Made by a program: the position numbers and the translations under genes. The notes beneath the pieces are model-generated. The model ran no database searches. It saw only the letters and a program-made list of their open reading frames with translations, and was not told where the DNA came from. A DNA stretch of 64,000 nt from Antedon mediterranea (lineage: Eukaryota > Animalia > Echinodermata), in the NCBI RefSeq assembly GCF_964355755.1, contig NC_092678.1:22213365-22277364 (forward strand). Reading direction: 5' to 3'. Within the stretch, counting starts at the first letter, position 1. Each line of letters begins with the position of its first letter. Shown in pieces: positions 13,644 to 49,206 of this stretch.

Positions 13644-13815
13644 TGCTTGGTTGTCACTAGCGACGCAAAGCAAGTACGTATAGTGCAACATAAGTACGTA
13701 TAGTGCAACGTAAGTACGTAAGTGATTTGACTAATCGCAAGCAATGGATTATTCGAGCTGTCGCTTGTCATTGGTCAACTCGCTTGCATTGCGTCTCTCT
13801 AGTGGGAACCAAGCT
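13644..13815. mobile_element. MITE family A copy (diverged)
   Basis: tgcttggttgtcactag..ctagtgggaaccaagct. Confidence 0.7.
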
Positions 13816-22703: not shown

Positions 22704-25700
22704 ATGGATGAAGAATATGATGTTATTGTTCTTGGTACAGGTCTCAAGGTAATTATATGGATGATTATAATGTAATTTAATAGTTATTATCGAACAATTC
22801 TGAAAAGAAAGTCAGGCCCACTCGTTCTGTGTGAATCCTGACGTACCAACACACCCTACCTCCACCGGCCGGCGGCGGAGGTGGCCGGTGGAGGTATGTT
22901 CCTCCCACCACCTACGCATACATACGGTTATCCTGCCCTATAAGATCTTCTCGCACGTTAATTATTAAGTTTTAATGGCATCACAATTGTCGTATTCGAG
23001 TGTACCGTTGGGTAGTTTTTCCGTTGAGTACTTAACGGAGTATTTTGAGCGTTGAGATTGTTCTTAACGAAAAAGCTTTCATTGTCAACGTTTTCTATTC
23101 GAATGACTTTCTGTTGAGCACAAATTTACAATTCGAATACAAAAAGTACTCAACGAATCTTTACGTTGACAACGAAAGTTCCCAATCAAATACGACAAAT
23201 GATGGACTGTGTGTGTTTATTTTTTGTGGTGATGATATGACTTCTCTGAATCCCAGTTCAGTTAGTGGTGGTGGTACTGGTAGGCCAACAACAACAAAAA
23301 AGGCTGTAATTTTATACTGATGGGCTACGTTTTTATATGCCTAAATAGCTAGTAGTAAGCCTAGTAATCAGTTCAGTAGTACGTGCATTATTTCCATGCG
23401 TGCTATCTAGGCTTTGGCATAGTGAATAGTGTAGTAAGTTATATTAATATGATAATTAACGATGCAGAGTCCAAACTGTATAGTTTCTGGAAGCAACTAT
23501 TACATTCCTAGGCCTAGATTATAAGTTTATTTAAACATTTTGTTTCAGGAATGCATTCTAAGTGGACTGTTGTCTGTGAAGGGCAAGAAGGTATTGCATG
23601 TTGACAGAAATAGCTATTATGGAGGAAGTAGTGCATCCATTACGCCACTTGATCAGGTGAGCAAATAAATGATAATACACAATTATTGGTACTGCTAATT
23701 TCCAACATTTTTCTCTTCACTTTAAAATGTCAATAGTTGCAATTTGCAATCACATAGATCATAACTACAAACACTTTATTATGTCTATTGAAATTAAAAT
23801 CTTTTAAATTTATCCTTATTGAATTTAGTTGTTTACACATTTCGGAAAGGAAGCGCCATCCAAGATGGAAACATATGGCCGACCAAGAGATTGGAACGTA
23901 GATATTATTCCAAAGTTCCTAATGGCAAGTGGTAAGAAATAACACAAATTAAAAATTATTTTCTATTAGCGCAAAGCATACAATTTGTGGGTTGTAACCA
24001 GTGCATTGAAAATATTTGTATTTATTTATTTGGTATATAAAAATAATTACAAAACGACAGTCAAGGACTGAATTGAATTCAATTCAATTCAAAATTCTTT
24101 AATCATCCCACACGGGGCAATTCAAATAAAAATTGCATTACAAATGACTAAAAATTTGTTAAAATTGCTATAAAAATAGAAACATCTTATTAAAATTAAA
24201 TATCGAACCATAAAGTTAAAAAAATACATGAATAAAAAACCTTAAAACATTCACTTATTACATTATTACATTATATTATTTTCGATGTATAAAAATAAAT
24301 ACAATTTAACCTCTTTGGAACAGTCTATTTTGTGCCTAGCTTACCTCGATAAACCAACAATAGCCCATGCTCTTCAGAGGGCTTAGATATAAAAATTAAA
24401 AGTTCCTGGACCATAATTGACTAGTCCGCAAACAGGAACAAGTGGCAGTACATGTTTTAACACTATGACCCCTTATTCAGTGAATACTTTGTTTACATTA
24501 CACATTCATTTTTATCAAAAGTACACTTTAAACAATTCTATATGAATTGCTTGTAATAAAACAATTCTTAATTGTCTTAGGTGAATTGGTGCAAATTCTG
24601 ATAATGTCCGGTGTAACCAGGTATCTAGAATTCAAGTCAGTTGAAGGAAGCTATGTGTACAAAGGAGGCAAAATACACAAGGTGCCAGCTGACGAAAAAG
24701 AGGCTCTGACATCAAGTAAGTCAGCTATTTGTATTCAACGTATTTAATAATTATCCACAGAGCAGTGCCTACAAAGTTCATCATGTATTGTATGTATTGT
24801 ACACTGGACCAAGACTTTTAGGTCTCATCTGAAGGATGAGGCAATGACAATAATGAAGCATCACTCTCACCTTTAAAATTACAAACAAAGCAGCTTTTTA
24901 ATCCATGTCATTACTTGGCAAAATAGAATTTTTCCAAGTATAGTACTTGCTTTGTTCATTAGCATGATAGCGCCTACAATTTTCAAGTTATCATTCTGAA
25001 TATTTTAGTGTAAATAGGTATACCTACAGAACATTCCTCAATTCAAGAAAATCGGTTTATTAATAACTTCAAAAATAAAAAAAAAGATGAACTGAAATAT
25101 CATGCGCCCTCTGTGGCAATATTTTTCCAAGTACTTCACTCAGTTTTTGAGTGTTTTCATCATTCATTTAATTGTCGATACTGTTTTTTCTCAGGTTTGA
25201 TGGGTTTATTGGAGAAAAGACGATTTAAAAATTTCCTGAATTTTGCTTACAATTTTGAAGAGGGTGATGATGCAGAAAAAAAATCATTACCCAAGAATCT
25301 GACCACGGCTAGTACGATGGAACAGTGTTACAGTGCATTCGGTCTGGATAAAAACACCATGGACTTCACTGGACATGCTATAGCGTTGTATCGTGATGAC
25401 GAGTAAGTTGAATAGAGTCACCATATGCATCACTGATTTCTTTTATAGTATTCTACAGGCATGGATGGATGATATCAATCATGCCCAGAGTCAATATTTG
25501 GCGTGTTGGCTATTGGCAGAGTTGACTGCATATAATTCATTCATTACTATTGCTTTATATTGCATACTGAACTAGATAGTGGTCAGCCGTGTCGATAGGG
25601 AGTTTGACATTAGATTCACTGTCAACTGTACCAATAGAAAAAACAAATTTATATGAACAGTTGACAATGCTGATGTAAATTATTATCACTTTTATTTCTA

Positions 25701-28123
25701 ACTGTCTAAAAGAGGAGTTGATGCCATAATTTAATTTTATTTTTTAGTAATCTAAAAACGTTAATGCCATAAACAATTTCATTACATCATTTATGACGTT
25801 TGCTACAATTATTATCATTTTTTTTTCTTTGTAGCTATCTAAGCAAGCCACTACCAGAAACGCTAAAGAGAATCAAGTTATACAGTGAGTCACTAACCCG
25901 GTATGGCAAGTCTCCCTACCTTTATCCTCTGTATGGTCTAGGGGAGCTACCTCAAGGTTTTGCAAGGTAAGAATCAAAAGCTATGTTCTTTGATAAACCT
26001 TTTTTTAAAGGCTCGTCCGTCACAAGATATTTTTTTTTTAACTTCAACCTCTGACCTCATATCATTTTGTTATTGCCTCTGTATGCTATTATCTGTATGT
26101 CAGAGTATGTAAATAAATGATATGAAATTTGAAACATTAGAAAATTGTTAGTAAATGGATAATTTTCCACGTATTTGTTTTTCAGACTTTCCGCTATTTA
26201 TGGTGGAACTTATATGCTAAACAAACCAATAGAGAACATAGAATACGACCAAGATGGCACGGTCATTGGAGTGAAATCGGAAGGAGAGACGGCCAAAACA
26301 AAATGCGTTGTAGCTGACCCATCGTACTTTACGGATAAGGTCAAGAAAGTTGGAAAGGTCGTCCGCTGCATCTGTTTGCTGAAAGAACCAATTCCAAACA
26401 CCAAGGACTCGACTGCTTGCCAGCTCATCATACCACAGAATCAAGTAGGAAGAAAATCAGGTAAAATAGACTAATCACTACGGCCTTGCGATTTAATAAC
26501 CTCACCTAACATTTCCATAGTTCAATAGTAGCATATGTAGAATCTTCATACTTGGGATACGGCGGGGATTCTATGAGAAATGGCTGATTGAAATATCATA
26601 AGAATATTGCCACTTCCAAATATCTGTAAAGTGTCTTTTAATCTCATCAAGCAGTTTCAGAGCCCTTTGTAAACAATTTCATTTAAAAACCTTTGTCTTT
26701 AGCTCTATTTACACTATCAAACTAGTTTGACAAAAATAGTGTGATGTGCCGAAATATGGTGGTGATATGACATCATCATGTCCATATATGGGCTCATCAC
26801 ATTTTGTTGTCAAATAAAGTTTGATATTTATAGACAGAGCTTTGTGGTTATGTTTAGACATTTTACAAATTTGTTTACAGATATTTACGTGTGCTGCGTT
26901 TCAAGTGCTCATAATGTAGCGGCCAAGGGTTTCTATATTGCTATTGTATCCACAACCGTTGAAACCGAAAATCCCGAGGCAGAGATTAAGCCAGGCTTGG
27001 ATCTCTTAGGAACTGTACTAGAGAAGTTTTTGTCTATTGATGATTTATATGAACCAACTGATGATGGAGAAAAGTCCAAGGTGGGTTTTTTTACATTTTT
27101 AAGATCATATGATTATTATTTACTCTGCAGCGATAATTCAATTAAATTCAATTTCATTTCACATTTATTCAATTAATGAAAACTTAAACAATGTAAACAA
27201 TATAAACAAATAAAGATATCATTAATTAGGATCAAAATATAAAACAAAATAAAAATGTATACAAATAAGTGGCATAATAATACATTTATGAATGATAATT
27301 TTCCAAATAATTTGATTTCTGAATATTTTTGCATTTTCACATTTTTTTAGATTTTCTTTTAAGTTATTCCATAATTTAGGTTCATGAACTATAATAAAAA
27401 ATTGGCTTTTACTAAGTCTTACAAAAGCAACATAAAGTATTTTGAGCTCTTAAGAATTACTGCTGCGAATTACTGTAGCTATAAGAGATAATTTGTCAGA
27501 TGTTTTAACCTACTTTTACTCTAACATACTGCTAACTTTCCATAGTACATTGTGAACACTCTGCGCAGAAAGTAACAAGTTACAAGGCTTGAACTCACGA
27601 CCTCCACTTATAAAGTTTTTCCAAAGTTAGGTTATTGCATGCAACAACAGTTTTTGAGAACATGTTGTAAACAAATGTTCAAGTAAGACTCGAACCTAAA
27701 ACCTCATAGTTGCTAGTAAAGTTCACCACTAACATATTGCATGTAAAAGTTATTAAAAATGTTTATTTCATACGCATCCAACAGCAAGCAAATACTCGCC
27801 AATTATAAGATGAATAAACAATTTTATAATTTATTGTGCTTATAAACTAAGTCGAATGTGAACCCTGGCACTAAGTCAGGATTGAACCCCAGACCTTGGG
27901 ATTGGAAGGCAAGCACGTTAACCACCAAGCTACAGCTCCATTACTTCTACTTTTAAAGTGTTTGTTTTTAATTGTTGTGATATAGGTCTTCATTACTAAA
28001 TCCTACGATGCTACCACTCATTTTGAGACAACATGCGAGGACATCAAGAACACCTATCGACGAATCACAGGGGAGGAACTTGATTTCTCACAAGTGCAAA
28101 AAGACATTGAAGCCGTTAATTAA
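22704..28123 (+). CDS. Gdi: Rab GDP-dissociation inhibitor (GDI1/GDI2 homologue), 9 exons, 447 aa
   Basis: Exons 22704-22748, 23549-23656, 23829-23931, 24581-24715, 25195-25402, 25835-25966, 26186-26460, 26881-27080, 27986-28123 (1344 nt, phases consistent). Starts [21 protein letters not shown] and contains [64 protein letters not shown] and [12 protein letters not shown]. Confidence 0.97.
22987..23199. mobile_element. MITE-like inverted-repeat element in GDI intron 1
   Basis: ttgtcgtattcga / tcaaatacgacaa termini, with an internal cgttgagtact / agtactcaacg inverted pair. Confidence 0.5.
26701..26841. mobile_element. MITE family B copy in GDI intron 7
   Basis: agctctatttacactatcaaact..agtttgatatttatagacagagct. 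Confidence 0.75.
27868..27940 (-). pseudogene. tRNA-like SINE head or tRNA pseudogene in GDI intron 8
   Basis: Minus strand ggagctgtagcttggtggttaacgtgcttgccttccaatcccaaggtctggggttcaatcctg has A-box and B-box but stems do not pair fully; more decayed relatives near 27580-27610 and 27685-27735. Confidence 0.5.
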
Positions 28124-31912: not shown

Positions 31913-32042
31913 GCCCTATTTCATATTAGCAAACTTTCGATTTGAAGACAGCAGTTAAATTCGGCGGTAACTTGAAAAACAATCTGCGCATGCGTATATG
32001 CTGTCCTCGTGTAAATCGAAAGCTTCTTATACGATAGAGGGC
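31913..32042. repeat. MITE-like inverted repeat in the presumed 3' UTR of the neuropeptide precursor gene
   Basis: gccctatttcatattagcaaactttcgattt / aaatcgaaagcttcttatacgatagagggc imperfect inverted pair. Confidence 0.5.
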
Positions 32043-32441
32043 GGAGCAGGGAGATAATCTGTGTGTGCTTTGATATTATAATGATGATACTCAAGCTTAA
32101 TCAGGGAAAAATATACACAAAATTCAAGACCTTTTCGGTACGTTTAGTAAATCAATATATCGAATTCTTCTCAATGACTTAACATTACAGTATTTCTTTA
32201 CATGTTACAAAACCGTATAGCTTACGGCATTAGAAACCATTAGGTCTAATATTTATGAATTAAAGCAACGTTGTAATCATATCAGTTATTCAATCCCGTT
32301 TCAAATTACCCACAATCCTAAGTTTATGTAACAGCACACATTTGACCTTTTTATTTCAATTTAAAAATAACCCAAACCAAACTAATTCTCTCTTAAAAAT
32401 TAACGTTTTTAATTTATGTTTACATGTATTTACTGGTAATT

Positions 32442-32734
32442 TTAAACACCACCGTTTATCATGTTTCGTTTGCCGTTCATCATTGGTCGTTTATATTGGT
32501 AATATTCTTGTTCGTAGGGTGTTTCATCCTCAAAATTCCGCCTCTGTTCTGATAACCATTCTTGGAAGGCTCGTTTTACGTCCAAATTCTCTCTGTACCC
32601 GCCCATGCGTATTGGCTCGCGTTTGATAAAGTAAGCGGTTGAGTCCCTTTTTCGGCCGCCTAGCCATGGTCGTTTGTTTCTCAGAGCACCGTTTGAGAGC
32701 CGCCACGCGGCATTTTCTGGTTCTGTATCTTGCT
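32442..32734 (-). CDS. Putative neuropeptide precursor, last coding exon (peptide-bearing)
   Basis: Acceptor tatttgtttatttcag|AG, phase 1. Translation: EQDTEPENAAWRLSNGALRN-KR-PWLGG-RKR-DSTAYFI-KR-EPIRMGGYRENLDV-KR-AFQEWLSEQ-RR-NFEDETPYEQEYYQY-KR-PMMNG-KR-NMINGGV*. Seven basic cleavage sites, two preceded by Gly (amidation donors). Minus-strand AATAAA near 31678-31683. Confidence 0.85.
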
Positions 32735-34464
32735 CTGAAATAAACAAATATTTCTGTTAGTATTAGTAGTAGTAGTAGTGATGTTTAGTGACCAAGATTT
32801 TATCATAGAGGGGCAATTCTAACTTTAGGTGTGTACGTTCTATAATGATTGATTCCCACTCGCACGCAAGCACGACGCAAGTAATTTCACCACGACGCCT
32901 GTGTTGCGTCCTCCAAGTGGGAAACGTAACAGGCATATCGATTTGCGCATAGCCGCGTTGAGCGTCGTGAAAACGAAACATTGGCGTTCGATTCACCGCA
33001 CCGGAACCGTGCCGAAACAGGTGTGAAAGGCCCTTAAAGGTTGAATCTCGACTGATTTTTCATGCATAAAATGTGCACGTCGTCGTCGCCCGTTTTTTCA
33101 CTGAAAAATACTCCGCGCCTCCTAAAGATGACCTAGCAATTACATAACAACTATACTGCGATTTTTTGCAAACCTTACACGTCGGTCACTCCCACGGGAA
33201 CAAGCTAATATTATCGGATGAGGTTGACCGGATCTTATAGCATGGTTGCTAACAGATTTTTTTTTACCATGTGCCATTAAGAAGTCAGTTGTTACAGTGT
33301 TTTGAATATTTTGACAATTTGCAAACGCCTAATTTACTGAAATGGGTGGCAATAAGCGTGTAAGTATCAATTTCAACCAATTAAAAGATTCCGTGTTATC
33401 TTTGATTAATGCGAAACCACTACAGAATTACGTACGTACGAACGACACCGCGGCTGTCCGCCGATTCATATAAACTACTTCTAAATACGGCCTTATTATT
33501 ATTCCTATAATCCCGTTGACATATCGATTCTTCATACTGTAAACTATTCGGTAATAAAATACATTAGTATGTGTTATGAAAAATAACTTAGCGTAACGTA
33601 CCACTTACCGTTGTGGTCGCATCTAAAAAGTTATTGTTTTTATTGTCTTACGCATGCGTACTCGCATACGACTTCTGTATTTATTCGACAAAATGGTATC
33701 GTCAATTGCATATGCCATGAGCGTAAAAATTATGTTATGGTATTTTGTACGCGCGCGTATATTTCACAATTTTTATTGAATCATGCATGCGTAATTGCAT
33801 ACGACTGCTGTATATTCGACAAAATGATATCGTCAATTGCATATGCCATGAGCGTACAAAATAAAAACATGTTACGGTCTTTTGTACGCGCGCGTATATT
33901 TTACAATGGTGTCAAATATTTAATAATATTTTATATTTCATAAAGCCTGAAACTAACTAAAAATAAGTTGGTTTTTTTTATTCTGAATATAATCTGATAT
34001 ATTATTCATAAATATATCATAATTGTGCGTAATTAATTCTGATTTTGCGGAAGACGTGTGATACTTTCATTCATTGTTTCACAATAATACCTCGCAAAAT
34101 CAATCTAAAACGTCAGATATTGTTAAATAACAATCAAAAAAATAATTACACTTGCACGCTTTACGCGTAAGCTCATCGTTTATTTATAGTTTTACATATT
34201 GATATAATTATTTTTAAAAACCATTCAACTATCAAATATAGTAATTATTAATTGCGCGAATTGGCTTGTTTAATTGTAATGTCGAAGTCAAATAGTTGAC
34301 ATAATTCATTTTCAAGATTTTATTTCGTTTTTAAGAGTCTATAATGTAACTTATGCAAATCATCTATTACTTAGTCTTGTATAAAGCAGGTTTACCAAAT
34401 ACTTTCAAATTGTTCAAGTTATGATAATTTTATTGCTGTATGTTCAGATTTTTATTTAATCTAA

Positions 34465-34739
34465 ATCTCTGTCTACACTATCAAACTAGTTTGACAAAAA
34501 AAGTGTGATGTATCCAAATGGTAATGATATGGTTAAATATGGTAGTGATATGACATCATCATGTCCTGGTCCATATATGAGCACATCAGATTTTTTTGTC
34601 ACATCAAATTTGATAGTGTAGACAGAGCTTAACCGAAATGAGTAGTGAATGACATCATCATGTCCATATATGAGCACATCACATTTTTTTGTCACATCAA
34701 ATTTGATAGTGTAGACAGAGCTTAACCGAAATGAGTAGT
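34465..34739. mobile_element. MITE family B copy with its right half plus flank tandemly duplicated
   Basis: Right TIR followed by taaccgaaatgagtagt appears twice (ending near 34646 and 34739). Confidence 0.8.
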
Positions 34740-35276
34740 TTTAGAACACCTATAATTATAGTTAAGTATTTTGATACTGCTATTTTATCCCATGTGTAAA
34801 TTGTTCGCTTCTGCTGAGACACGCTTTGCAATTATAGTGGTCTGAATCGATATAAATATTAATGATTGAACATCATTTGAAATGAATAATATGACCTTCT
34901 TTCTAATTGTCGCCAAAATAATATCTTTGGTTTTGTAATGTTATTTTATAAATAAGATATTTCTACTAACTAATGGTGACTGCGACGAACCGGCGCGGTG
35001 TGAATTCTAGATCGAAAATATGCGGCCCGGAGTGATTTCGCACACAGAGGCCTAACTGTGGAATTCCCCATTTAAGATGCCCATATTCATATGACGCCCC
35101 TTTAAGGGTACACTTAAAAACGAATTAGGGGATATATAAGTTTGCTTATACCATGCCCACCCCTATTCAAGGAATACCCCTATTAAAGTGAGAATTTGCT
35201 AGGTATCGGGATAATAAGTATAGAGCGTTTAGGTATTGAAATATATATTTTTGATGAAAATATATATTTATACTGG

Positions 35277-35552
35277 GTAACCTCTTCAGTCAAAGACTGG
35301 TTTCCCAGAAGGCCCAGTTGGTGATCAGTGGCTGTGGGTTCTAATACACCGGGGTAACCCACTACTCGTCTCGAAAGATGTACTAGGTTCTTTAAAGTGC
35401 ACACGAGCTAGATCTGGACCTACGGTTTATAGTTCTTATCCGAAAAGACTCGTTTTACCACCAGAACCATCGAGTGAGTGAGCCTCGAACCCCTGCCGAT
35501 GTTATGGCTACGTAATTACGGTTCCACTGTCTTAACCGCTCGGCCACTCACT
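35277..35552 (-). mobile_element. tRNA-derived SINE, second copy of the 8795-9165 family
   Basis: The reverse complement aligns with 8795-9030 over the head and central domain (gagtgagtggccgagcggttaagacagtggaaccgtaattacgtagccataacatcggcagg..). Confidence 0.8.
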
Positions 35553-35742
35553 CTTTCATAAAAATGTGTTTGTATCGAGATTCGTACTCTGAAAAAATTG
35601 AGGGACAATATAATGTTTTAATACTACGGCCAATCCCTATTCAGGAGACACACCCATTTAGGGACACTTGGTTGGGCGATGTCCCCTTTAAATGGGGTTC
35701 TACGCTCATTATAAGCATAGAGCGTGTTGGGTTAAAACTCAC

Positions 35743-35860
35743 CAAATGTGTTTGTATCTGGATTATCGTATTCTGAAGAAACTGTTAAAAAGCACTGTTG
35801 TAGGCACATACATAGAAATAGCGCAGCCCCTATGTTTAACATTGACATTGGTGAAACCAT
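35743..35860 (-). CDS. Putative neuropeptide precursor, first coding exon (signal peptide)
   Basis: On the minus strand a pyrimidine-rich acceptor (..tttatatttgcag|aaa) precedes ATG. Translation: MVSPMSMLNIGAALFLCMCLQQCFLTVSS-EYDNPDTNTF, with a hydrophobic core and V-S-S cleavage-type site. The exon ends at G|gtgagt (phase 1), matching the phase of the exon at 32734. Confidence 0.8.
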
Positions 35861-37174
35861 TTTCTGCAAATATAAACAAAGATAAAAATAACTGTTAAAA
35901 TATTCAAATGACACTGAAAATTGAGATACCAGGAAATGAAATGATCATGCGCGTGCAAAAGTCTTTATCATTATTCGTCAGAGTCTCTGACGAATTCGAA
36001 TTATCCAACATTATTAAACTGTAATCTGATATAATCATAGAAAATATAATATTATATAATAACCACGGTGATTAACTGTAAATAACTGTATTAAAAAATA
36101 GGAAATTGAAACATTTCTAATTAAAAGTTGCAAGCTGAGAGGATATGTGTAAATTGTGCTATAATTCGGATACATTACATTACAAATAATGTAGGTTACA
36201 TCCTTGCTATTATGCATTCTAATATTATGGGTGGCTGGGTAGCATCCACGGGGAATGGTAGGCCTATATAGGTGTTACTACAGTATTGGAAACAAAATAT
36301 CAGAATGCCGTGTGGGCGTTTAGGGCATATAGTTTGTAAACTATGCATTATAGTTGTTTTTATAATATGAAAATGTTGAGACAAGTACAGTGTATTGGTC
36401 TTGCATCCCGTCTTGCATCTTCTCCATTATCATGACAATGCTATGATACAGCTCACATCTGTTTCATAGGATCGATGTCTCTGTATTGCCCTCACAATTA
36501 TTCCATGCTACAAAATTCACATGTTTCGCCGTGGGCCTGTTTTACAAATATTGCCGTATTTGTAGAGCACGAGAAGCGTTCAGACTAACCTTTCAACAAT
36601 TTTAAAAGATAAAGACGTAGAGGTTAAGACGGTTTATGTTCTAATCATATATAGCATATAGGATTCTAGGGGAGAAACCCGCGGAGAAAACGATTCTTCA
36701 TAAGAACTTTTTTTTTCTATCCTGCAAAATATCGTTTTGACGGTTAAGAAATCAGGCGTGGGCGGATCGATATGACGTTTCACCGAACTTTCTTCTCTGC
36801 GAGTTGTTTCCCTCAATCTTAATAGCACATTCTTAACTAAAATACCTTTCATGTATTGTGTGACAAAATAACTCAAGATAACCGACGAAAAGCATTTGAT
36901 ATAATCCAATAATTGGGAGCTATAAATTATTTCTTGTTCCATTTGGTCATAGATGTAGTAGGCGGCTTGAGAATTTGCTAAGCCTTCCCATGAGTCCCGA
37001 GGATCATTAATCTTTACCGTCAACAAACAGTTTCATTACATACATTTGTCTATAAAAATCAACATTAAATTTTAGAAGTTAATTTTCGGGACAGATTTTA
37101 CTACCGCGCACTAGTTATTTTACAAAAATGTTCGACACTACGTTTCCTCTCGTGTGTTTTAAGGTCGCCTTTTA

Positions 37175-37650
37175 TGCGCGCGGTCAAATGTTGATAATAA
37201 CATGGCTTGTAAACACGCGCATTCAAATCTTGATAATGGTACGGCTTTTGTACGCGTGCGTCCAAATGTAGATAATTGCACGGTTATTGTACGCGTGTTC
37301 AGATGTTGATAGTGGTACGGCTTTTGTACGCGCGTGTTCAGATGTAGATAATGGTACAGTTATTGTACTCGTGTTCAGATGTTGATAATGGTACGTCTTT
37401 TGTACGCGCGCGTTCAAATGTAGATAAAGGTACGACTTTGTACACGCGTGTTCAGAAGTTGATAATGGTACGGCTTTTGTACGCGCTTGTTCAGATGTTG
37501 ATAATGGTACGGCTTTTGTACGCGCGTGTTCAGATGTTGATAATTGTACGGCTTTTGTACGCGCGTGTTCAGATGTTGATAATTGTACGGCTTTTGTACG
37601 CGCGTGTTCAGATGTTGATAATGACACGGATTTTGTACACGTGTGTCCAA
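37175..37650. repeat. Minisatellite, about 12 x 39 bp (gttcagatgttgataatggtacggcttttgtacgcgcgt)
   Basis: Directly visible; produces the periodic ORFs 37223-37657(-), 37351-37659(+) and 37414-37650(-). Confidence 0.95.
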
Positions 37651-39585
37651 TTGTCATAGAGGTTATTCTGTGGTGTTTTTGGGATAAGAAATGTTTAATG
37701 ATTATAAATGTATTTTTTAGTATTAAAATATTAAAGTTATTTAAGAATTAATAAATTACGTTGTGTATGTTGTTGTTTTCTTTGTGGCCTTCCATACATT
37801 TTTAATAATTGTGAGAAACATGTTTATATAATATTCGGACAGAGATGCGTTAAAAGCAAAATTAATATTGTATTATATCAATAATTAGAAAAAGTTCAAA
37901 CACATGACGTCATAATGAATATTTATACAATTTCTTGTTTTTTGTAGGGAAGTGTAGGGTAGATAATCGCCAATGTATAAACGAACCTTTATAGCTGATG
38001 ATTAAATTATTGGCACGATGTTAGGCCTACTTTTTAATTTTTTTGAAATAATATGCAAACATTATGATTGTGTATTTTAACTCAGGAAACATTTTGAAGT
38101 TTCAAACAGTAAGAATATATTGTTAAATAAAAAGATAAGGTACAATTAATATTCTTCTTTTGTGACGAGCGTGCATCCGTAAATTTATTCGGAAAAACTA
38201 AATCGCTATTTGCATTAATATAATTGACCTTTGTGGTTTGACGTGAATGCTTAGATCAAATTAAGAGTTAGTGCAATTAATTAAAATCACATCTAATGCC
38301 ATTGATGAAGATGACATCAATTATTACGTCACATACTGTATACGTTCTTATTTTTTGATATTATACAGGCCTAGAGGGTGGATATCAAAGTCTTAAAATA
38401 AAAAAAAATAAAAAAATATCGTTTGTATGGAAATGTTGATGAACGCGATCACAAATAAAGATAGTTTTTTTAAATTGATAATTACGATATAGATTGCGTA
38501 TGCACGTCGTTCAAGTTCGTGCGTAGTTCTGAAATTATTTGATTGAAATTTATCAACATGTGTTAATAATGACATCAATTTTGGCGTGAAGTTGACGATA
38601 AGAAGTAAACCAAGGCTCTAACGTATCCGAGATTCATCTCCGGGTAAGCGTATCCCCCCGGGAGGCGTTTGGACTTCTCAAAACCTGGTTCCTAATTTAG
38701 CAACTAATAGACAATTTCTAAATCTAATATTCAGTCACTCTCAGGGGATTCTATTAATTAGAAATGTTTGGTTGCTTCATTGCAAATAAATGATTACGGA
38801 ATGAAAATTCAGCGAAAAAAAAAAAGCAATGTGGTATAGTAAAGATTATTCCAAAAATATCTTTGTAATTAAACAGCTCATTTGAAAAATTAAAACCGCT
38901 GCAAATGATAACCTGAATAAAAAGGTTTTATCGTTGAATTCACAAGTTAAACATCTTAAAAATTTCGCCCTAAAGGCTGTAATTGTTTAACTTTTTAATT
39001 AGAAGTTGATAACATTTCTCCTTGATAAATAGGGATTTGCCCCAAAATATCCATGTTATAAATCTGAGAACGAATTAAGTTTGTTTTCATTAAACTTACA
39101 AGTAACTAAATTACAAATAATGCAAGAAAGAGCTGGGGGAACTTAATTACAAATCATGCAAGAAAGAGCTGGGCAACTAAATTCTATTTAGTGTGTGTAC
39201 GAAATTGTCTCATGAAAATCGAAGAAGCTTCGAAAGAAATAGAAAACAGACAATAAGAAATTAGCCAATTAAGAAACCACATACTCTGAATTGATCTTTG
39301 CACTTTGCGCTTAAGACACATCTGCTGTCGGCTGCTTTCAGCAATTTGTAAGATTTAATTTGTTTAGTTAGATACCCACATCACTGAGAACACCTGTGAG
39401 TTATGTACTGGCTGGTCTATGAACCTTAAATTGCTGGTAAACGGAAGCAGCGATGTGGGTTTGATTGGTCTTGTTTATTTTTTCGGTTTTTGTCAAATTT
39501 ATCAATTGTATTTAGGTTTAAGGTTTATATGTTTTCATGGTTTTTCACAAGCGCCTTGAGCACTTTAGTGATATGTGCGCTGTAT

Positions 39586-39620
39586 AAATCTTATTATTAT
39601 TATTATTATTATTATTATTT
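39586..39620 (+). repeat. (TAT)n microsatellite tail of an L2-type LINE/SINE 3' end
   Basis: Preceded by aagcgccttgagcac..gcgctgtataaatc, typical of L2-clade tails. Confidence 0.55.
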
Positions 39621-42414
39621 TGACCCCACCTTCTCGAAATTCTATCGATACCAACTTTATCACCTTCGATACAGATGCCTGCTGAGGAATATAAGTTATG
39701 CTTCCGAGATTCCCCCTTTCCATTCTTTTTTTATAAATCTTTGCACTATGCTTATTCATGTACGGTTTATGCATGTATGATGAATGGATATAAATAAAGA
39801 AAAGAAGAATAATTAGGTTATTATTTCAAAGGGTGTACTGCAAGTCACATTAGTGGATAACTGGGTCATGACATGTCATGTAGATGTCTTCCAACCCGTG
39901 ACAATATTTTGATTGATTATTGATTTTAATCGGATTAAATCAAATCAGCTACTTACCGTAACCTATTCAAATATATTCCGCGCAAAATTGGTTCAAAGAT
40001 TACCGAAAGTTATATCAAATGAATTTGTGAATTCTTTGTAACGGCTTCATCCAATATACATTCATTCGTCAATTAAAGCAATAATTACAACGCAATCCCC
40101 AGGCTAGATTACTTCCCATCAGAAGGCTACTCCTCTTGATAAAAGATAGCAAACTATTAATATATTTGTAGAAGTATATAGTGCAGATGGTAGTTATAGT
40201 TGAAGTAATGTTAAATAGACGAGCGGTAACGGTAAGCGGAAAACAAAATATAGAATATATGTTATTTCTTATGATCATTAAACACAAAACGCGGAGAGGA
40301 CGCCGGGTGGTTGAGCGGAAAGCCTCTCATCAGGAAGATAACGCGAAGTCCTCGAAAGTTCGTTTTTTTTCCTACTGCCAGTTTTTCATTTCTCAGCTTT
40401 TCCATTTTTATTGTCACGATGTATAAACTTCTTTTTAATTTGTTAGAGTTGTTTTATGTTTTAAGTATTACTAGTAGTGCTTATTTTGTATCGTATTCCA
40501 TTTTCTCAATTTTCTTTTATATTTTATGTTGATCGATATTGGAATAAAACTGTCAATGAAGACTGAAGAAAAAATGACTTCTCAATAAAAAAAACTTTTT
40601 TTTTTAAAGATAGGCTAAATTATTTGATTTTTTCTATAACTTGTGATAGATTATTTATATATGAAAGTATATAAAGTAATCTGTGTTTTCTAATATTTGA
40701 TTAACTCTGATAAACCAAAATAAAATAAAATGTTATATATTAGTCTCGCAATTGGCTGTCCAAATCGTTTATAACTTTCATAATGTTTGATTTAATTATA
40801 TCGAAATTTATTTCAAATGATTTTTTAAACAAACTTTCTCATCTTAAATTTGTTAATCTACTTTAATAAATTAATTTTAGTTCACAAACAACCTGTGAGA
40901 AAGAGAAGAAAGACAAAATTTTATCGCGGTATCTTAAAAGAAGACTGTTGTATTTACCGAGCAAACGCGGATTAATATTATTTTTGGGTCTTGGCGTAAT
41001 TAAAAATGAATTACGCACACGTTCGATAGTTACGGTCTTGTCACGTGATGATATTAAAAGCAGACGATTAGCTGATGCTTTCGATTACAAACAACGCCGT
41101 ATCTGTGAGTAATTAACACTCATCTAGACATTATTCGATACATGTAATGGGTAATATTAAACAAAATCTAGTCTTTCATCTGCATTCTATGAACCCTTTT
41201 ATTAACCAATTAAGAGATCGTCGTGGCAATAAATAGATTGGCGGGTAATAGCTGGTTTACAGGTATTCGCTCCAAGGCGCAATCAATCCGCAGCGGCGTA
41301 TTAATACGTTGCATTATCGCTGAGCCCTTCAGTGCTGTGTTATTGATTTTTGCAACATATAGTGAGATTTATGATTGTAGACAAACAAATTATATTTTAT
41401 AAATCATATTAAGATGGACTTGGATTATTGTTGAAATGCATTATTGACACAGTATGGCCAAATAGAGTGTGTGTTTAGGCCCGTTCGGGCTTAGCGCTTT
41501 ACCTGTGTAAGTTGGTTCAGACCCGGGTTACTATTGCATATTGTTCCGATCAATTTTCATGTTAAGTTAAAGGTGTAGGAGAGAAGAGTCTGACATCCAT
41601 TTAAATGGTGCACATTTTAACATTTCACATTCGTCCTTTCTGTCCGTACGCCACATGTTCCTTAGATCTTTTACAAGAGGCGTAAGCTGCGCTAGGGTAT
41701 CTCTGCATGTCTGAACACCCGATCTTTCCGAGAATGATCTAACCTCTCGGCCGTTCAACTCACCGAATTGCAAAGGACACTAATACTGCTAAATTGTAAT
41801 ACTTAATTTGCATATATTATATTTCATTAACAATAATCGTTAATGCTGTTTGTCTGTTGCAATTTCATGAAATAATTTCCAATTTTTATTTCATGTCACA
41901 GGAAATGTGCGTTCTGTGATTTAAGATGTAGCATTCGTTTCGACTGAAATTTTCCAGCCAATAAACAACTATTTCTTAACGGCTGTCCAAACTTTAAACG
42001 AGAACTATTAAAATCCAAGTAATCCGTACCAAAGCGCATTGGTGCATGCTGAGCGTTTGACGTTACAATAAAATAGCTGACTTTTTTTTATAAAATACAT
42101 ACAAAGAGTTTTATTACTATTACTGTTAAGAATTACGAACATCAAAAGGCAAGAACGCGGTCGTATATAACCTGAAATAGTACCAGTGTTTTATACACAA
42201 GGTATTTGTTTTATCGAACAACCAGGTCAAATGTCAGATCATCAATTACGGCGCGTTATGCGCACATTATTGAATAGAATATAACGTTGTCTAAAATGAT
42301 CAGTTTTTGTTTACTGCAAAATTAAATTTACTTTACACGTATGTGCCTTGTCTGTAATTCGTACGCGTACTTATGTTGTTATCAAACGATGAGTGAGTAC
42401 GCGCCCACTGTATG

Positions 42415-42610
42415 TTGGATGTCTGAAACGGAAGTGCGTACTGCGTGCAGTGTAAGTTGGGTTTAAAACGGAAGTGCGTGTGCGTGCAGTTTAAGTTAGG
42501 TCTGACACGGAAGCGCGTGCAGTTTAAGTTGGGTATTAAACGGAAGTGCATATGCGTGCAGTTTAAGTTGGGTCTAAAACGGAAGTGCGTACGCATGTAA
42601 TTTATGTTGG
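42415..42610. repeat. Tandem array, about 5 x 34-41 bp (aaacggaagtgcgt..tgcgtgcagtttaagttgggt)
   Basis: Directly visible repeats. Confidence 0.85.
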
Positions 42611-44844
42611 GTCTTATACCTGCATAATTTCTCAACCTGGATAATCTTTCATTTTTCTAAAACATATTTATTTTTATTTTTTTGGTCAATAATAATATTG
42701 TTCGTAATATGTTTTTCAACACTCGAATGCTTCCCATCGATGGATGTTATAGTGACTGTTGATGGATGATTCAACGGTATTCTGTTGATTAATGTTTATC
42801 TTATTATATTATTTTACATTTTTTAATAATAGTATCCAAAAAAATCACAAAATAACAACCTCATTAGCCACATGTCAAAAAGAAATGATGGAGTGATGTT
42901 ACGATCTTGTTACATTTAAAATCTTTGAATACAAGATTCAATAGTCTTTAACTACCTCTAGTCGTTCGTCTATTGTCATTAAAAGTAGCATTAATAAAGG
43001 ATTTTGTAAATGAGTACATGATAGAGATGGCCTGAGGATGTGTAATCTGCTTTCCTCGAGGGTCGGTTCAACAACACTCATCAATATCGCTTCCTATTAT
43101 ATTTCAATAGATATATTTAATATCTTTCTTTCAGTAATTACGTTTAAAAGATTAGTTGATTACGTAGAAGACATAATCTGTCGTTATAATGATAACAAAA
43201 AAGTTTTACAATTTAATTTTACCAAACTCATACGAATCTAATATAATTTTGGTTTTTATAAAATGTTATATTATAATGACTACGTCAAATACAAGTTTGC
43301 TTAATCAATAACAACGATTTGTTTTTTTGTTTAAGTAGTGAAATACTATACTGTATTATAACTTATTGATTATTTATAACAATTATGATTAATTATATAT
43401 TATTAATGGATTGAAATTGTAGCTTATTTAATTCAATGGCACAACTATCATTTTATTCATCCGAACGTTCTTTTCTTTGTCTTTTTGTTTAATTTGAAGT
43501 TAATTTATTAATGAAAACATTCGACAATTAATCCTTCTTCATCAACAAAACATGTTACGTAATAGAGATGAAAATGTTTAATTTATTTCTTTTTAGCTCG
43601 CCAACACTAAGTAGATCATAACAATGACGAGCGCGGACAAAAGTTGATAATTATAATATACATTTTTGTACGCGCGCGTCCGCGTACAAGCTTTGATAAC
43701 AATACATAATACATGTTTTTGTACGCGCGCGTAACTATCGCGTCATGACGGCACATTTCATGAGGTGCCGACACTTTAATAACATAAATATTCAAATGAT
43801 TATTTTTGCCCAAAGGTCCACTTAAAATTTCCGAGTAAAAAAAGTGTAATGTACGTTTTAATTTAAAAAGAACTGCGCTCTTCCGTCGGTGATTATTTTG
43901 AGCAGTTTTATGTCATGGTCAGTTACACTATACATCAATAATGATAATTATATCTGATAATAATCAAATTTAGAAAGTATAAAAATATTAAGTCATTTAA
44001 TGGTACAGTATTAAATTGAAATATCGCTTATGACTTGTCTCTTCTGGTGATATCTTGTCACACATTAAACTCTATACGTGTTTGATTCAACTATAAACTG
44101 ATTCAATATTAATATGATTTATCCGGTGTATCACATTAGAAGTGAGTAAGAAGACTGAACAAGTAGGCCTGACAACTTTTAGTCAAAATAAAGCTTGGGT
44201 GGGTGAGACAGTGGTAATAATTTTAGGATAAGAGTGTTTATGTCTTGACAGAAGAGGTAAAAGAACTTCTTTTAAAGGACACCTTCAGGAAGTGCCCTCC
44301 TATAAAAATGAGGTGTCCCTCAATAATGAGGTGTCCTCAGAATAATGGGGGTGTCCTGTGAATAATGGGGGTGTACCCTGAATAATATGGTCTCCCCTGA
44401 ATATGGGGTGTCCTCAAAATAATATTGTATCGTCTGAATAATAGGGTTTTCAGTATTATATACATCACTGACCATTACAATATTGACAATCTTTATTTTA
44501 TTGAAGCATAGTACGATATATTCCCTTTCAACACGAGTGTTTGGCGGACTAATTACGGACATGATTGGTTTTTTATTGAATCGCTTCACTATGGTGTTTG
44601 TTACAAGTGGTAGCAATTAGCAGAGACCAGTATTGATATTCGTTATGAGGCTGTTTGGGTCGATATTCTATTTACATTGCAAAAGTATTCAATCTCGAGT
44701 CTTCGTCGTCAAACATCAAACATGTTGATAGAGATGAGATTTAACTCGATGATTTAATTCGTAACTTCTGAGTGGGTTTCTTTTTTAGCGTATTTTTCGT
44801 TAAGTTTTTATTGATTCGCTGCTCTATTACATTGGTAAAGGAAT

Positions 44845-45410
44845 TCAGGTCTTGAAGCGCCAATCCGTTAAAAAATTCATAGTTTAGGTATTGAGTTTAA
44901 GTACACTAGTTCTCTATTGAATTTTGAATTAAGAAATAAATCATCACGTAATAGATTAAATTCATCAGCATATTTACATGAAACTGTTAAATTGCCTTGT
45001 TTCATTAAACACAAAGCTTAAATTAAACAGTTGTATTTCAGGTCTTGGTGGAGAGCCAAATCGTTAAGAAATGTAAAGTTTTGTAGCTACAATAGTTCTC
45101 TATTGAATTTTTAATTAAGAAACAAAACATCATCACGTAATAGACTAAATTCATCTATTTAAATGAAACTGTTAGATTTTCCTTGCTTCATTAAACAAAA
45201 AACTTAAATTAAACAGTTACAGTACTGTATTTCAGGTCTTGGAGAGCTAAACCGTTAAGGAATGTAGAGTTTTGTAGGTACAATAGTTCTCTATTAAATT
45301 TTGAATTAAGAAATAAATCATCACTTAATAGATTAAATTCATCTATTTAAATGAAACTGTTAAATTGTTCTTGTTCCATTAAACCAAAATCTTAAATTAA
45401 ACAGTTACTA
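44845..45410. repeat. Tandem repeat, 3 x about 185 bp
   Basis: ttcaggtcttg..cgttaa..agttctctatt..aattaagaaa..catcac.taataga.taaattcatc..atgaaactgtta..cttaaattaaacagtt seen three times. Confidence 0.85.
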
Positions 45411-45971
45411 TAATTATGTCAGGGTTTTAAACAAGAATAACGGTAACATATCTTTGAAAGTCAAACACACGTTATTTCAGAATCTGTTAATTATAATATC
45501 TGTACCTAACAGTATCGTTTGAATATGTCATATCTAACTATGTAGGATATTAATTTTGAGATAACATCCATTAAAAGGGGTTACATACCGATAGCGTAGA
45601 TTCTTGCTAAATAATCTAAATATTTTAGAGCATTTGGCTTCAGATTTCATTCTTAATTGATTTCAAACGAAGAATATATAACCGTTGATTCCATTATCAA
45701 CTATATTCAGAGATATGACATAATCTGTTTGTTTACCATATTGTCATTATTAATCAATGAATCAATCTAGTATTCGCAACATTGGTTTATTTTCCTCAAT
45801 ATTCTCATTTATTTAAATAGCCCTATAATTATTGAATGTGTCAAATTTATCAAACCTGCTTTGAAAAAAATTATCTTAACTTATCGCGAATCTGTATTAA
45901 ATTATTATCCTGTTGGTGCAGAGTACCGAAGGTGTCTGCTTCCTCTGACCCGAATACAACCCTAGCCATCA

Positions 45972-46045
45972 GCATAAGCTCAGTGGTCTAGAGGTATGGA
46001 TGCCAGGGTAGTGATTTGGAAGTTGTGAGTTCGAATCTTCCCTGA
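45972..46045 (+). pseudogene. Degenerate tRNA-like SINE head
   Basis: agctcagtggtctagagg..gtgagttcgaatct A/B boxes without a full cloverleaf; a similar minus-strand head lies at 53098-53170. Confidence 0.45.
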
Positions 46046-46993
46046 TTCTCAAATTACTTAGTACACAGTAAAATTACGTGGTGGAAAACATCTGACCGAT
46101 TATCTTAACTTTTGGTAATATATAATTTCAAAATAACTTAACAAATATAGATTTCTTAGATTTAAACAAATCCCGTTCTCTAAGATAAAATGAATTAGTT
46201 TGATAAATACATTTTAAGTTTTCCAATTAAGTATTGTTGAACTATTTTGACTTTAAAACAAATATAATGATAAATGTTAGCTAGAGAAGATGGATAAAGA
46301 ATAAAATTAGAAAATGAATAAGGAAGAAACGAAATTGGCTAGGAATGAAAATGGGAAAGAAAGTGGATTAGAACAAGCGAAGAGTTGGCATTTCAGTAAA
46401 CCATCCTGGTAGAAAGGTCGTATATAGAATAATTAACCTATTACACACTGAATATTAATGGAATGTAAAGAAATGTTAGATGAAAATCTATCTGAAGTTT
46501 CTTTACATTTTCCTTTTTGTGCTTTTAAATTGCTATACTTTAATATTTAGCCTATAGTTTTCACTTTGTAGTATTTCTTTTGTACTTAATAGTTTTACTG
46601 CGTGTTTGAAGTTTTGTCAATTCTGTTTATTGCGATATTTTCTACATGAATATTTATGTTTTAGACTTGTGTACGTTGCTAAAATACTAACCACTACACA
46701 AAGTTTAAAATACCTTACGGAGTATAACATTAAACCTGATTGAAAGTATAAATGAATATATAGCATAGCAAACTACCTAAGTTGCTGAAAAATATACAAA
46801 CTTCCCAAAATATGCCAATATTAAAAATCTTTTGGAAATAATAAAATCTTTCCATTAGTTCGTACAATGATTGTTACTTCAAAACACCAAATCAATATTT
46901 TATGTTGAAGAAATCATTAGTATTAGTATAAAAAAGTATTAGTAAATCTCTGAAATAATTATAGAAATAATTAGAAAAGATAAAAGTACTTAC

Positions 46994-47150
46994 ATTTGAC
47001 TTTCTATTTCTTAGATAGGTAGGCCTATTCACAATCTGCGGACAAAATAATCAGACGATGCGCTTCTTTCTCTGTATTACCTGAATTCTTGCGCGCTTCA
47101 TTTTAAACAGATGATGCACATGAATTATTCATGTTTCTTAAACCACGCCC
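46994..47150 (-). promoter_or_regulatory. Candidate promoter and non-coding first exon of the neuropeptide precursor gene
   Basis: On the minus strand: GC box gggcgtgg (47143-47150), TTTAAAA near 47101-47107, an approximately 90-nt non-coding stretch, then the consensus donor |gtaagt at 46993-46988. The coding exon at 35863 begins with an acceptor, so an upstream exon must exist somewhere. Confidence 0.3.
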
Positions 47151-49206
47151 ATTTCTTCACTACGCGTTTCAAGACAGCGAATAGAAAACTACCTTCTCAT
47201 ACGTCTCAATTTTGGAATACTTTCCGAAACGTCATACCCTGGTGGCGTATCTGCACTGGGGCGTAAACATCGGAGTATAATAAGTGTGTAATTGTTTTGC
47301 AAATAAGTCTTGGTGAAATCTTGATTTTTCCCAGCATAACTCCAGGGGGAAAGCAGACTTAATAACTGCGTTTGTATGACATCATTTTGGCGGCCTTGAT
47401 GTCCACAACACTGCGAATGATCTGTTATTGTTCATTTTGAACAAACAACAGTCAGACGTAGCATAGCTGCAAACTATGTGTTAACATTATTAAATTGATG
47501 TTTTTTGTTGATCTTGGCTCAATTTGGCAAGTTTGTTTTTGAATCTAATTTAACTAGCAAAGATTACAAAGAAGTTATTTGTTTGTTGGTAATAAACAAT
47601 TGTATACTCCCTCCCACTAAATGTTAATACGTAAAGTGGGGTGGTAGAACATGATGTTGCTGAACTTTGCGATTGGCTGAATTTATTATTTTTTATAAGC
47701 AAACTTATTTGAGAAAGGAGGAACTCTTATCCACTTGAAAAATTGTTGTTCATATCATCAGATCGAAACAACAACAAAGAAAAAATATAATAGGAATTAT
47801 AATTATCAATATGTTCACCACATAATAATTGTGGTTCTCTGGAGATAGAAATTTAATAGCTCTATGTGTCTATTTCCAAATTAAGTAAAGAACCTCAGAT
47901 TTCTTACAGTTTTTAAACTAACAATTCTTATACAGTTATAAAAATAAATAAATGTAAATATATAATTTAATTTTATAGTCAGATTTGAAAGATTGCCAAT
48001 CTTCATATTAAATATTAATGTCATTGAAATACATTAGAATTAGCAAATGTGTTCAAAATGAAGAGAACTCTTGTTGAAATATTCAAAGTAAGATACAATG
48101 GTCAGAGAGAGATTACGAGTAGAAAAAGAACGTTATTATGCAAATGTAATCTACTGCGACGATTGTCAATTTGACCTCGAGGTCAATTTTAAGATGAACT
48201 CATTTTCTTTCCTATTCCCTGAAATGACGTTGTGTAAATGAACAGAAAAACAACAATGTATATTTTCTTACAGAATGAAAATAGTTTTAGAATCCTCGTC
48301 AAATGTAATAATAATACAAAGATTAATTTATTTGTATACTTAAAACAGTTATTGGTAATGACTGTAAAATTTTGATTAACTGGTTTGATTAGCAGTGGCC
48401 CTCGGGAAATTCTCACAATGGATCGTGTCAGACCGCAACGAAGGTTAAGTAAAGTGCATGTTTAATTATCGTATACCTAAAACAGTTTGAGTTCACACCT
48501 ACGTGAAGTCAGTGCACACCCCGCCACCACCCCACGCAAACGGTCACGTATCCAATTTAAAAACGTGGGCGCTGCTGACATTCTATAGAAAGACCTTCAT
48601 TTTTTGTTTGCAAACGTGCAGTTAAGCTAAATGTTTTCGTTTTTGCACCACTCTCTAGCAACTTGGCGAAAACGTCAGCAATTTGACGGCGCTCAAGACG
48701 CTAACCTCCTTTGTACGCCGCGTTAACTTAACGTCTTTATGATGTCGTTGACAACATATGACGTCAATAGTATATCGGATTTACATTTATTAATTTTTAA
48801 AAAATTTTTAAATTTACTTTAATAAAGTTATTTTTCATTGCGATATGTTTAATATTCATCTCGGATAAAATTCATAGGGTGGGTGTTTCACGGGAAGTCT
48901 ACAATTATTTATTGATTTATAAAGGTGCCGAATAATTGTTTCAAGCAGTCTATAATTTGTATTAGTGATTGTTACGTCATTAACAACACTTACAAGGTAG
49001 AAAAATTACTGTGATGAATATGAGCCCATTAATCCCAAGTTTTAACTGCAGCACCTTACTCTTTAAACTCTGTATTGTTACGTAAATTTGTAAACCAATA
49101 ATATATGTAATAATTGTTCTAAACAATGTAAGCCAATACAAATTTAAAACATGTTTAATTTTTAAATGACGTACACCACGCGTACACAAACCATCAGGGA
49201 TGCGTA

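What the first reader, a model, noticed from the sequence alone, without database searches (positions are those of the whole stretch)
32442..35863. Orphan neuropeptide/prohormone precursor split across two short ORFs
Seen: two unremarkable minus-strand ORFs splice in phase (G|gtgagt ... tttcag|AG) into a 136-aa protein, MVSPMSMLNIGAALFLCMCLQQCFLTVSS/EYDNPDTNTFEQDTEPENAAWRLSNGALRN-KR-PWLGG-RKR-DSTAYFI-KR-EPIRMGGYRENLDV-KR-AFQEWLSEQ-RR-NFEDETPYEQEYYQY-KR-PMMNG-KR-NMINGGV. Established: signal peptide plus KR/RR convertase sites plus Gly-basic amidation sites (PC1/PC2, carboxypeptidase E, PAM) define neuropeptide precursors. Inference: it would release PWLG-amide, PMMN-amide, NMINGGV and several non-repeated peptides. 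I do not recognise the family. PWLGamide loosely fits the TRH/EFLGamide tetrapeptide pattern but has Pro instead of Gln/Glu at position 1, so this may be an undescribed signalling system.
Basis: partly seen in the sequence, partly recalled or inferred. Interest (0 to 1): 0.85.

Follow-up and report, generated by a model that had tools for sequence, protein, structure and literature searches.

The report
Feather star neuropeptide precursor, already published
This spliced feather-star gene encodes a protein identical to PCNP12, a predicted neuropeptide precursor published in 2022; it likely releases short signalling peptides, and we found no receptor or function reported for them, so it is real but already catalogued.

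Summary
Two minus-strand exons (35863-35743, ATG at 35860; 32734-32442) join in phase 1 to a 136-aa ORF with a hydrophobic N-terminus and seven basic sites. The 3008-nt GT-AG junction is in a contig of 1 run guessed to be RNA and in 0 of 3 genomic-looking runs. A neighbouring Rab GDI exon is 100% identical to Antedon mediterranea, a crinoid. The protein is letter for letter AmedPCNP12 of Aleotti et al. 2022 (PMC9793003), which already names PWLG-NH2 and PMMN-NH2 and gives orthologues in Florometra and Anneissia. All seven basic sites and both Gly-ended tetrapeptides are kept in 3 of 3 species. So it is not undescribed. It is still an orphan: no homologue outside crinoids was found, and I found no peptidomics, expression or receptor work. 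TRH membership fails on N-terminal Gln, copy number and the neighbours seen. TRH has not been found in crinoids (PMC11890989), so a divergent TRH-type reading stays open at about 7%. Added here: gene structure, a 5' non-coding exon near 47 kb, and doubt about cleavage before proline.

The parts
46994..47588 (-). 5' non-coding exon 1 (inferred). Donor AT|GTAAGT at 46994/46993. Holds 14 upstream ATGs, none giving an in-frame extension of the precursor.
   Evidence: The first 400 nt shown of the published AmedPCNP12 transcript match the window from 47588 apart from a few single-base differences (by eye). 595+121+707 = 1423 nt, the published length, ends at 32028. The Anneissia model has the same three-exon layout. 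Upstream ATGs. The exon 1/2 junction was not shown by reads.
35864..46993 (-). Intron 1, 11,130 nt, in the 5' UTR (inferred; 9,752 nt in the Anneissia model)
35743..35863 (-). Exon 2, 121 nt: 3 nt UTR, ATG at 35860, predicted signal peptide and start of the acidic pro-region
   Evidence: joint and raised depth in X1
35774..35860 (-). Predicted signal peptide, about residues 1-29, with a likely cleavage after V-S-S
   Evidence: Hydropathy peak 2.62 in the window starting at residue 10; cleavage site inferred from the -3/-1 rule (own knowledge). The paper kept only sequences with a PrediSi-predicted signal peptide. SignalP was not available here.
32735..35742 (-). Intron 2, 3,008 nt, GT-AG, phase 1 (in the Glu40 codon); contains high-copy repeats
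   Evidence: table 5. Same phase and position in Anneissia (2,769 nt).
32442..32734 (-). Exon 3, coding part: all seven basic sites and all candidate peptides, to the TAA
32655..32669 (-). PWLG-G, predicted PWLG-NH2 (residues 62-66)
   Evidence: Invariant in 3 of 3 crinoids; named in PMC9793003
32577..32618 (-). 14-residue non-amidated segment with a PIRMGGYRE core
   Evidence: Core invariant in 3 of 3 crinoids; 9 of 14 identical to Anneissia
32544..32570 (-). 9-residue segment AFxEWLxEQ
   Evidence: 8 of 9 identical to Anneissia
32493..32537 (-). 15-residue acidic, Tyr-rich segment before KR-PMMNG
   Evidence: 9 of 15 identical to Anneissia
32472..32486 (-). PMMN-G, predicted PMMN-NH2 (residues 123-127)
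   Evidence: Invariant in 3 of 3 crinoids; named in PMC9793003
32445..32465 (-). C-terminal heptapeptide NM[IV]NGG[VP], free acid; shares M-x-N-G with PMMNG
   Evidence: 5 of 7 identical to Anneissia
32029..32441 (-). 3' UTR, at least to about 32029
   Evidence: X1 contigs 32029-32351 and 32383-32734 at depth 2313 and 2042; the published length predicts an end at 32028

Best explanation
This is the three-exon Antedon mediterranea gene for PCNP12, a predicted neuropeptide precursor found so far only in crinoids, which likely is cut at its conserved basic sites to release two predicted amidated tetrapeptides (PWLG-NH2, PMMN-NH2) and several non-amidated peptides that would act on unknown G-protein-coupled receptors. 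Shown: gene, splice of exon 2 to exon 3, identity with the published protein, conservation in three feather stars. Inferred from established prohormone biology: the signal peptide sends it into the regulated secretory pathway; PC1/3 or PC2 cut after KR/RR; carboxypeptidase E trims; PAM turns the exposed Gly into an amide; the peptides are co-released from neurons or neuroendocrine cells as modulators. None of these steps was tested here or in the paper passages read.
For: Joined ORF and motif map; KR excess, 1 of 100,000 shuffles; junction in X1 and not in 3 genomic-looking runs; host Antedon mediterranea from a 100% GDI match; sequence identical to AmedPCNP12 and the same two amides named; Anneissia orthologue XP_033114556 at E 6.5e-35, 105 of 137 columns identical from its Met41; 7 of 7 basic sites and both Gly-basic sites kept in 3 of 3 species; same intron phase and position in Anneissia; no Cys after the signal peptide and no Pfam domain at its curated cut-off.
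Against: No mass spectrometry, in situ or receptor data: the paper itself says further work is needed to show that PCNPs are neuropeptide precursors, and searches listed no follow-up. Both tetrapeptides need a cut before proline, which mammalian convertases disfavour (recalled). With 77% identity overall, two invariant 5-mers are only mildly above background, so conservation does not single out the tetrapeptides; PIRMGGYRE and AFxEWLxEQ are as well kept. X1 is RNA only by guess, is one run, and may not be independent of the published transcriptome. Tissue of expression is unknown.
Confidence: 0.72

Rival explanations
1. The KR-Pro sites are not cut, so the true amidated products are longer peptides ending in KR-PWLG-NH2 and KR-PMMN-NH2. 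The first could be a PrRP-like paralogue sitting next to the signal peptide.
For: In the same paper's supplement the identical Florometra sequence is listed both as PCNP8, whose peptide is given as PWRY-NH2, and as the PrRP/sNPF precursor, where RR-PWRY is the uncut end of a 23-residue peptide. PCNP12 shares [KR]R-P-W with it. A phase-1 intron within the peptide next to the signal peptide is a PrRP gene feature and would fit residues 30-65 here. The residues before both sites are conserved.
Against: PrRP-type peptides end in RF- or RY-amide and their precursors hold a single peptide; PCNP12 has LG-amide and seven basic sites. Crinoids already have a PrRP precursor. Invertebrate peptides that begin with Pro after KR are known (recalled). 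A phase-1 intron is common.
Confidence: 0.15
2. PCNP12 is the missing, strongly diverged crinoid TRH-type precursor: PWLG-NH2 is a TRH-receptor ligand in which proline replaces pyroglutamate (5-oxoproline).
For: [quoted passage not shown] Echinoderm TRHs are amidated tetrapeptides with an aromatic second residue, such as pQWYT-NH2 and pQYPG-NH2. PWLG matches EFLG at positions 3-4. TRH genes have two coding exons with a phase 0 or 1 intron. The ring likeness of Pro and pGlu is my own knowledge.
Against: No peptide starts with Gln after a dibasic site in Antedon or Anneissia. PWLG occurs once, against 12 (starfish), 19 (urchin, sea cucumber) and 21 (brittle star TRHP1) TRH-type peptides, though OvTRHP2 has only 2 short and 2 long. 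PMMN does not fit. None of the reported TRHP neighbours (TBC1D22B, CADPS1, COG5, GAT-2, CYP2J6) was seen; the neighbours found are Rab GDI and SLC23-type permeases. No TRH precursor appeared. Pro has a charged amine and pGlu does not.
Confidence: 0.07
3. It is a granin-like acidic secretory-granule protein, or a non-neural secreted protein, whose basic sites are cut but whose fragments are mostly not ligands.
For: Acidic, low-hydropathy chain with non-repeated segments; even conservation across peptides and spacers; very high depth in X1.
Against: Two conserved Gly-basic amidation signals; only 136 aa; no granin Pfam match.
Confidence: 0.05
4. A chance join of two unrelated ORFs.
For: None beyond the short length of the exons.
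Against: Junction contig, published transcript and two orthologues, conserved intron.
Confidence: 0.01

Closest known systems
AmedPCNP12 (predicted crinoid neuropeptide precursor 12; Aleotti et al. 2022, PMC9793003), with FserPCNP12 and AnjapPCNP12 (XP_033114556.1, LOC117115026)
   Same: Identical 136-aa sequence; same predicted PWLG-NH2 and PMMN-NH2; no family assigned.
   Different: Nothing at protein level. In the sections read, the paper gives no gene structure for PCNP12 and names only the two amides. Added here: exon map, conserved phase-1 intron, neighbours, and the conserved non-amidated segments.
Echinoderm TRH-type precursors (ArTRHP, SpTRHP, AjTRHP, OvTRHP1/2) and annelid EFLGamide
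   Same: KR-flanked amidated tetrapeptide with an aromatic residue at position 2; two coding exons.
   Different: Pro instead of Gln/Glu at position 1; one copy instead of many; second amide unrelated; different neighbours in the window; no sequence hit.
Crinoid PrRP/sNPF-type precursor (AmPrRPP; = PCNP8 in Florometra)
   Same: [KR]R-P-W-x-x-G-basic motif; the phase-1 intron of PCNP12 would lie inside a peptide adjoining the signal peptide, as in PrRP genes.
   Different: No RF/RY-amide; many cleavage sites instead of one peptide; a separate gene.

Membership tests
PCNP12 (crinoid orphan precursor) | Sequence identity with published AmedPCNP12 | tested here: met
   Exon translations plus the junction Glu equal the supplement sequence (compared by eye); length and site positions.
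PCNP12 (crinoid orphan precursor) | Host is a crinoid | tested here: met
   GDI exon 100% identical to Antedon mediterranea, next 88% Anneissia japonica.
Neuropeptide precursor (general) | N-terminal signal peptide | tested here: met
   Hydrophobic core by hydropathy only. SignalP not run here; the paper filtered on PrediSi.
Neuropeptide precursor (general) | Conserved di/tribasic cleavage sites | tested here: met
   7 of 7 kept in Anneissia and in Florometra (paper's alignment).
Neuropeptide precursor (general) | Conserved Gly-basic amidation sites | tested here: met
   2 of 2 kept in 3 of 3 species.
Neuropeptide precursor (general) | Mature peptides detected, neuronal expression, receptor activation | not testable with these tools
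   No such data listed; the paper asks for these tests.
TRH-type precursor | Peptides begin with Gln (pyroglutamate) in deuterostomes, or Glu in EFLGamide | tested here: not met
   0 peptides start with Q after a dibasic site in either species; the two short amides start with P. Feature.
TRH-type precursor | Multiple copies of one short amidated peptide | tested here: not met
   One PWLG and one PMMN against 12-21 in the main echinoderm precursors; OvTRHP2 has 2 short and 2 long.
TRH-type precursor | Amidated tetrapeptide with aromatic residue 2 | tested here: met
   Met by PWLG only, not PMMN.
TRH-type precursor | Two coding exons, intron phase 0 or 1 | tested here: met
   Phase 1; weakly informative.
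TRH-type precursor | Synteny with TBC1D22B, CADPS1, COG5, GAT-2, CYP2J6 | tested here: inconclusive
   None seen. Downstream neighbours are GDI and SLC23. Of 58 ORFs of at least 55 aa between 48.2 and 64 kb, 1 gave a weak hit below cut-off. Only 64 kb was seen, short exons would be missed, and ORFs in 1-48 kb were scanned only in part.
TRH-type precursor | Activates a TRH-type receptor | not testable with these tools
   Needs a cell assay.
PrRP/sNPF-type precursor | C-terminal RF- or RY-amide | tested here: not met
   Ends are LG-amide and MN-amide; feature.
PrRP/sNPF-type precursor | Single peptide adjacent to the signal peptide, interrupted by a phase-1 intron | tested here: inconclusive
   The intron fits only if residues 30-65 form one peptide; six more basic sites follow.

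The most novel reading that the evidence does not exclude
PCNP12 is the missing crinoid TRH-type precursor, in which a genetically encoded N-terminal proline has replaced pyroglutamate, so that PWLG-NH2 activates a crinoid TRH receptor; the same precursor co-releases unrelated M-x-N-G peptides.
Probability: 0.07. Interest if true: 0.6.

Novelty: already known. Interest (0 to 1): 0.17.

Why it matters
As it stands, little is new: the precursor and both predicted amides have been in print since 2022. It remains an untested orphan in the sister group of all other echinoderms, strongly represented in one run guessed to be RNA, so it is a ready candidate for peptidomics and receptor screening. If PWLG-NH2 proved to be a TRH-receptor ligand, it would close a stated gap (no TRH components known in crinoids) and show proline standing in for pyroglutamate. 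The gene map given here makes intron and synteny comparisons with eleutherozoan genomes possible.

Tried and rejected
Homologue search with exon B alone found nothing at E<=1; its 52-168 aa length window excluded the 173-aa Anneissia model, so this blank was uninformative. A profile search (21-303 aa, E<=10, 109 candidates) returned only that Anneissia protein; longer proteins such as multi-copy TRH precursors were outside it. The representative search gave 2 hits; the second (P0122, 925 aa, repetitive, unnamed, E 1.4e-4, 33% identity) was rejected as a compositional match. Pfam: SIL1 at E 0.2 on exon B, below cut-off, rejected; nothing on P0121. No RNA holder was on record; X1 is a guess. No whole genome is held and the protein atlas gave no answer, so genome-wide searches for a crinoid TRH precursor or receptor and language-model look-alikes are open. 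The exon 1/exon 2 junction was not tested with reads. Earlier scan findings: none. PDF-type, corazonin, NG-peptide, opioid and secretogranin likenesses were considered from memory only; no call supports them (the ArPDFP passage describes two long peptides, unlike this layout). A search for a paper on cleavage before proline listed only a sea-anemone study, not read. The 40-aa N-terminal extension of the Anneissia model is rejected as a conserved feature: the matching frame is closed by a stop in the window and in the Florometra cDNA (by eye). Structure prediction was not run, as the chain is a short, likely disordered prohormone.
Full report
Observation. The minus strand carries an ATG at 35860, a donor G|GTGAGT at 35743/35742 and an acceptor TTTCAG|AG at 32735/32734. 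Joined, 118 + 293 nt give 136 residues and a stop. Hydropathy peaks at 2.62 in the window starting at residue 10 and is negative from residue 22 on. Basic sites lie at residues 60, 67, 77, 93, 104, 121 and 128, two of them after Gly. The exon B frame has the highest KR density of the 69 ORFs of at least 80 aa in the window. All 6 of its lysines are followed by arginine, and 1 of 100,000 shuffles reached this.

Splicing and expression. Five runs from two studies hold the stretch, none on record as RNA. Four of the five were laid. In X1, guessed to be RNA, a contig skips exactly 3,008 bases between 35743 and 32734 with GT..AG ends at depth about 2,040 (22 letters on the shorter side). Repeat-free intron and flank bins in X1 lie at about 0.2-25. 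The three other runs, one sample, cover the region evenly and lack the joint. X1 contigs reach 32029 in the 3' UTR. These are contigs, so depth is a poor measure of expression, and X1 may not be independent of the published transcriptome.

Host and neighbours. A Rab GDI exon at 26184-26453 is 100% identical to Antedon mediterranea and 88% to Anneissia japonica. Downstream of the gene, on the other strand, lie Rab GDI, SLC23-type permease exons in what look like two tandem genes, and a broken reverse-transcriptase element. Upstream, 1 of 58 ORFs of at least 55 aa between 48.2 and 64 kb gave a weak Pfam hit below cut-off.

Identity. phmmer over 1.84 billion representatives gave 2 hits: Anneissia XP_033114556.1 (E 6.5e-35, 78%) and a repetitive 925-aa protein that I rejected. 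Aleotti et al. [quoted passage not shown] Of that paper I saw the abstract, sections 7, 31, 36, 41 and 45, search passages, supplementary file 2 whole, and passages of files 3 and 4; figures are not held and file 3 cells are cut at 400 characters. The supplement's Antedon sequence equals the window's translation letter for letter, with orthologues in Florometra and Anneissia. The authors found no homology for PCNP2-20 in other echinoderms and ask for mass spectrometry and in situ work. Library searches for 'PCNP12', six motif spellings, 'feather star + neuropeptide + PCNP' and crinoid mass spectrometry from 2023 listed no follow-up, and 'PWLGamide' gave 0 papers. The library lacks most subscription journals.

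Gene structure, added here. The first 400 nt shown of the published 1,423-nt transcript match the window from 47588 apart from a few single-base differences (by eye). A donor lies at 46994/46993. Exons of 595, 121 and 707 nt sum to 1,423 and end at 32028, one base from the end of the X1 contig. The Anneissia model has exons of 118, 120 and 284 coding nt with introns of 9,752 and 2,769 nt, against 11,130 and 3,008 here, and its second intron is also phase 1 at the aligned residue. So the gene has three exons, the first non-coding. The first junction is inferred, not shown by reads. The Anneissia precursor and GDI records both list a 2,512,260-base contig, which suggests, without proving, conserved linkage.

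Conservation. Against Anneissia from its Met41, 105 of 137 columns are identical. All 7 basic sites are kept (RKR becomes KR at one). The segments score 46/59, 5/5 (PWLGG), 4/7, 9/14, 8/9, 9/15, 5/5 (PMMNG) and 5/7. The paper's three-species alignment shows PWLGG, PMMNG, PIRMGGYRE and NM[IV]NGG in 3 of 3. At 77% background identity this shows a constrained precursor but does not single out the tetrapeptides as the active products.

Mechanism. By established prohormone biology (own knowledge), the protein would enter the regulated secretory pathway, be cut after KR/RR by PC1/3 or PC2, trimmed by carboxypeptidase E and amidated by PAM at the two exposed glycines. The products would be co-released as modulators acting on GPCRs. 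All of this is inference. One caveat is specific: both amides need cleavage before proline. The paper's own supplement lists one Florometra sequence both as PCNP8, whose peptide is given as PWRY-NH2, and as the PrRP precursor, where the same RR-PWRY is the uncut end of a 23-residue peptide. The real products of PCNP12 may likewise be longer.

Family. TRH: echinoderm TRH precursors carry many pQ-x-x-x-amides (12 in starfish, 19 in sea urchin and sea cucumber, PMC4772807 passages; 21 in OvTRHP1 but only 2 short and 2 long in OvTRHP2, PMC5627052 passages). PCNP12 has no Gln-initiated peptide and one copy of PWLG, and none of the TRHP neighbours listed in PMC11890989 (passages) was seen in the window. 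It is therefore not filed as TRH. [quoted passage not shown] PrRP/sNPF: it shares [KR]R-P-W and a phase-1 intron, but lacks the RF/RY-amide and single-peptide layout (PMC7314547 passages). Passages of PMC12638048 and PMC9598280 added nothing. No homologue outside crinoids was found, but short peptide motifs would not reach significance in databases of this size, and one search covered only 21-303 aa.

Verdict. A real, spliced, conserved gene for a probable neuropeptide precursor, already published as PCNP12 with the same predicted peptides. It is still an orphan without tested function. Novelty: already known. Interest 0.17.

Noticed in passing
window 47101-47051 (-), in the 5' exon: An upstream ATG in frame with the precursor closes after 16 codons. 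The matching stretch is open in the Anneissia RefSeq model and gives its 40-aa N-terminal extension (13 of 23 translated identities). The Florometra cDNA has stops there (by eye). The extension is probably an annotation artefact; a conserved upstream ORF is possible.
   Followed up: partly
window about 9000-21400 (+): Two tandem SLC23-type (xanthine/uracil/ascorbate permease) genes with near-identical exons (10493-10876 and 19789-20100); PF00860 at E 4e-22 for the second.
   Followed up: partly
window about 25000-27200 (+): Rab GDI gene, convergent with the precursor gene.
   Followed up: partly
window 2009-4318 (+): Frameshifted LINE-like reverse transcriptase (RVT_1, E 2.6e-32) in several overlapping ORFs.
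   Followed up: no
window about 34467-34725 and 35340-35550 (intron 2): Very high-copy interspersed repeats with internal duplications, by summed contig depth and loose ends in all four runs laid.
   Followed up: no
window 37223-37751, 42333-42656, 62453-62799: Short tandem-repeat arrays that read as repetitive ORFs; no Pfam match at curated cut-off for those tested, 37226-37747 and 62453-62796.
   Followed up: no
PMC9793003 supplementary file 2 (not the window): [quoted passage not shown]
   Followed up: no
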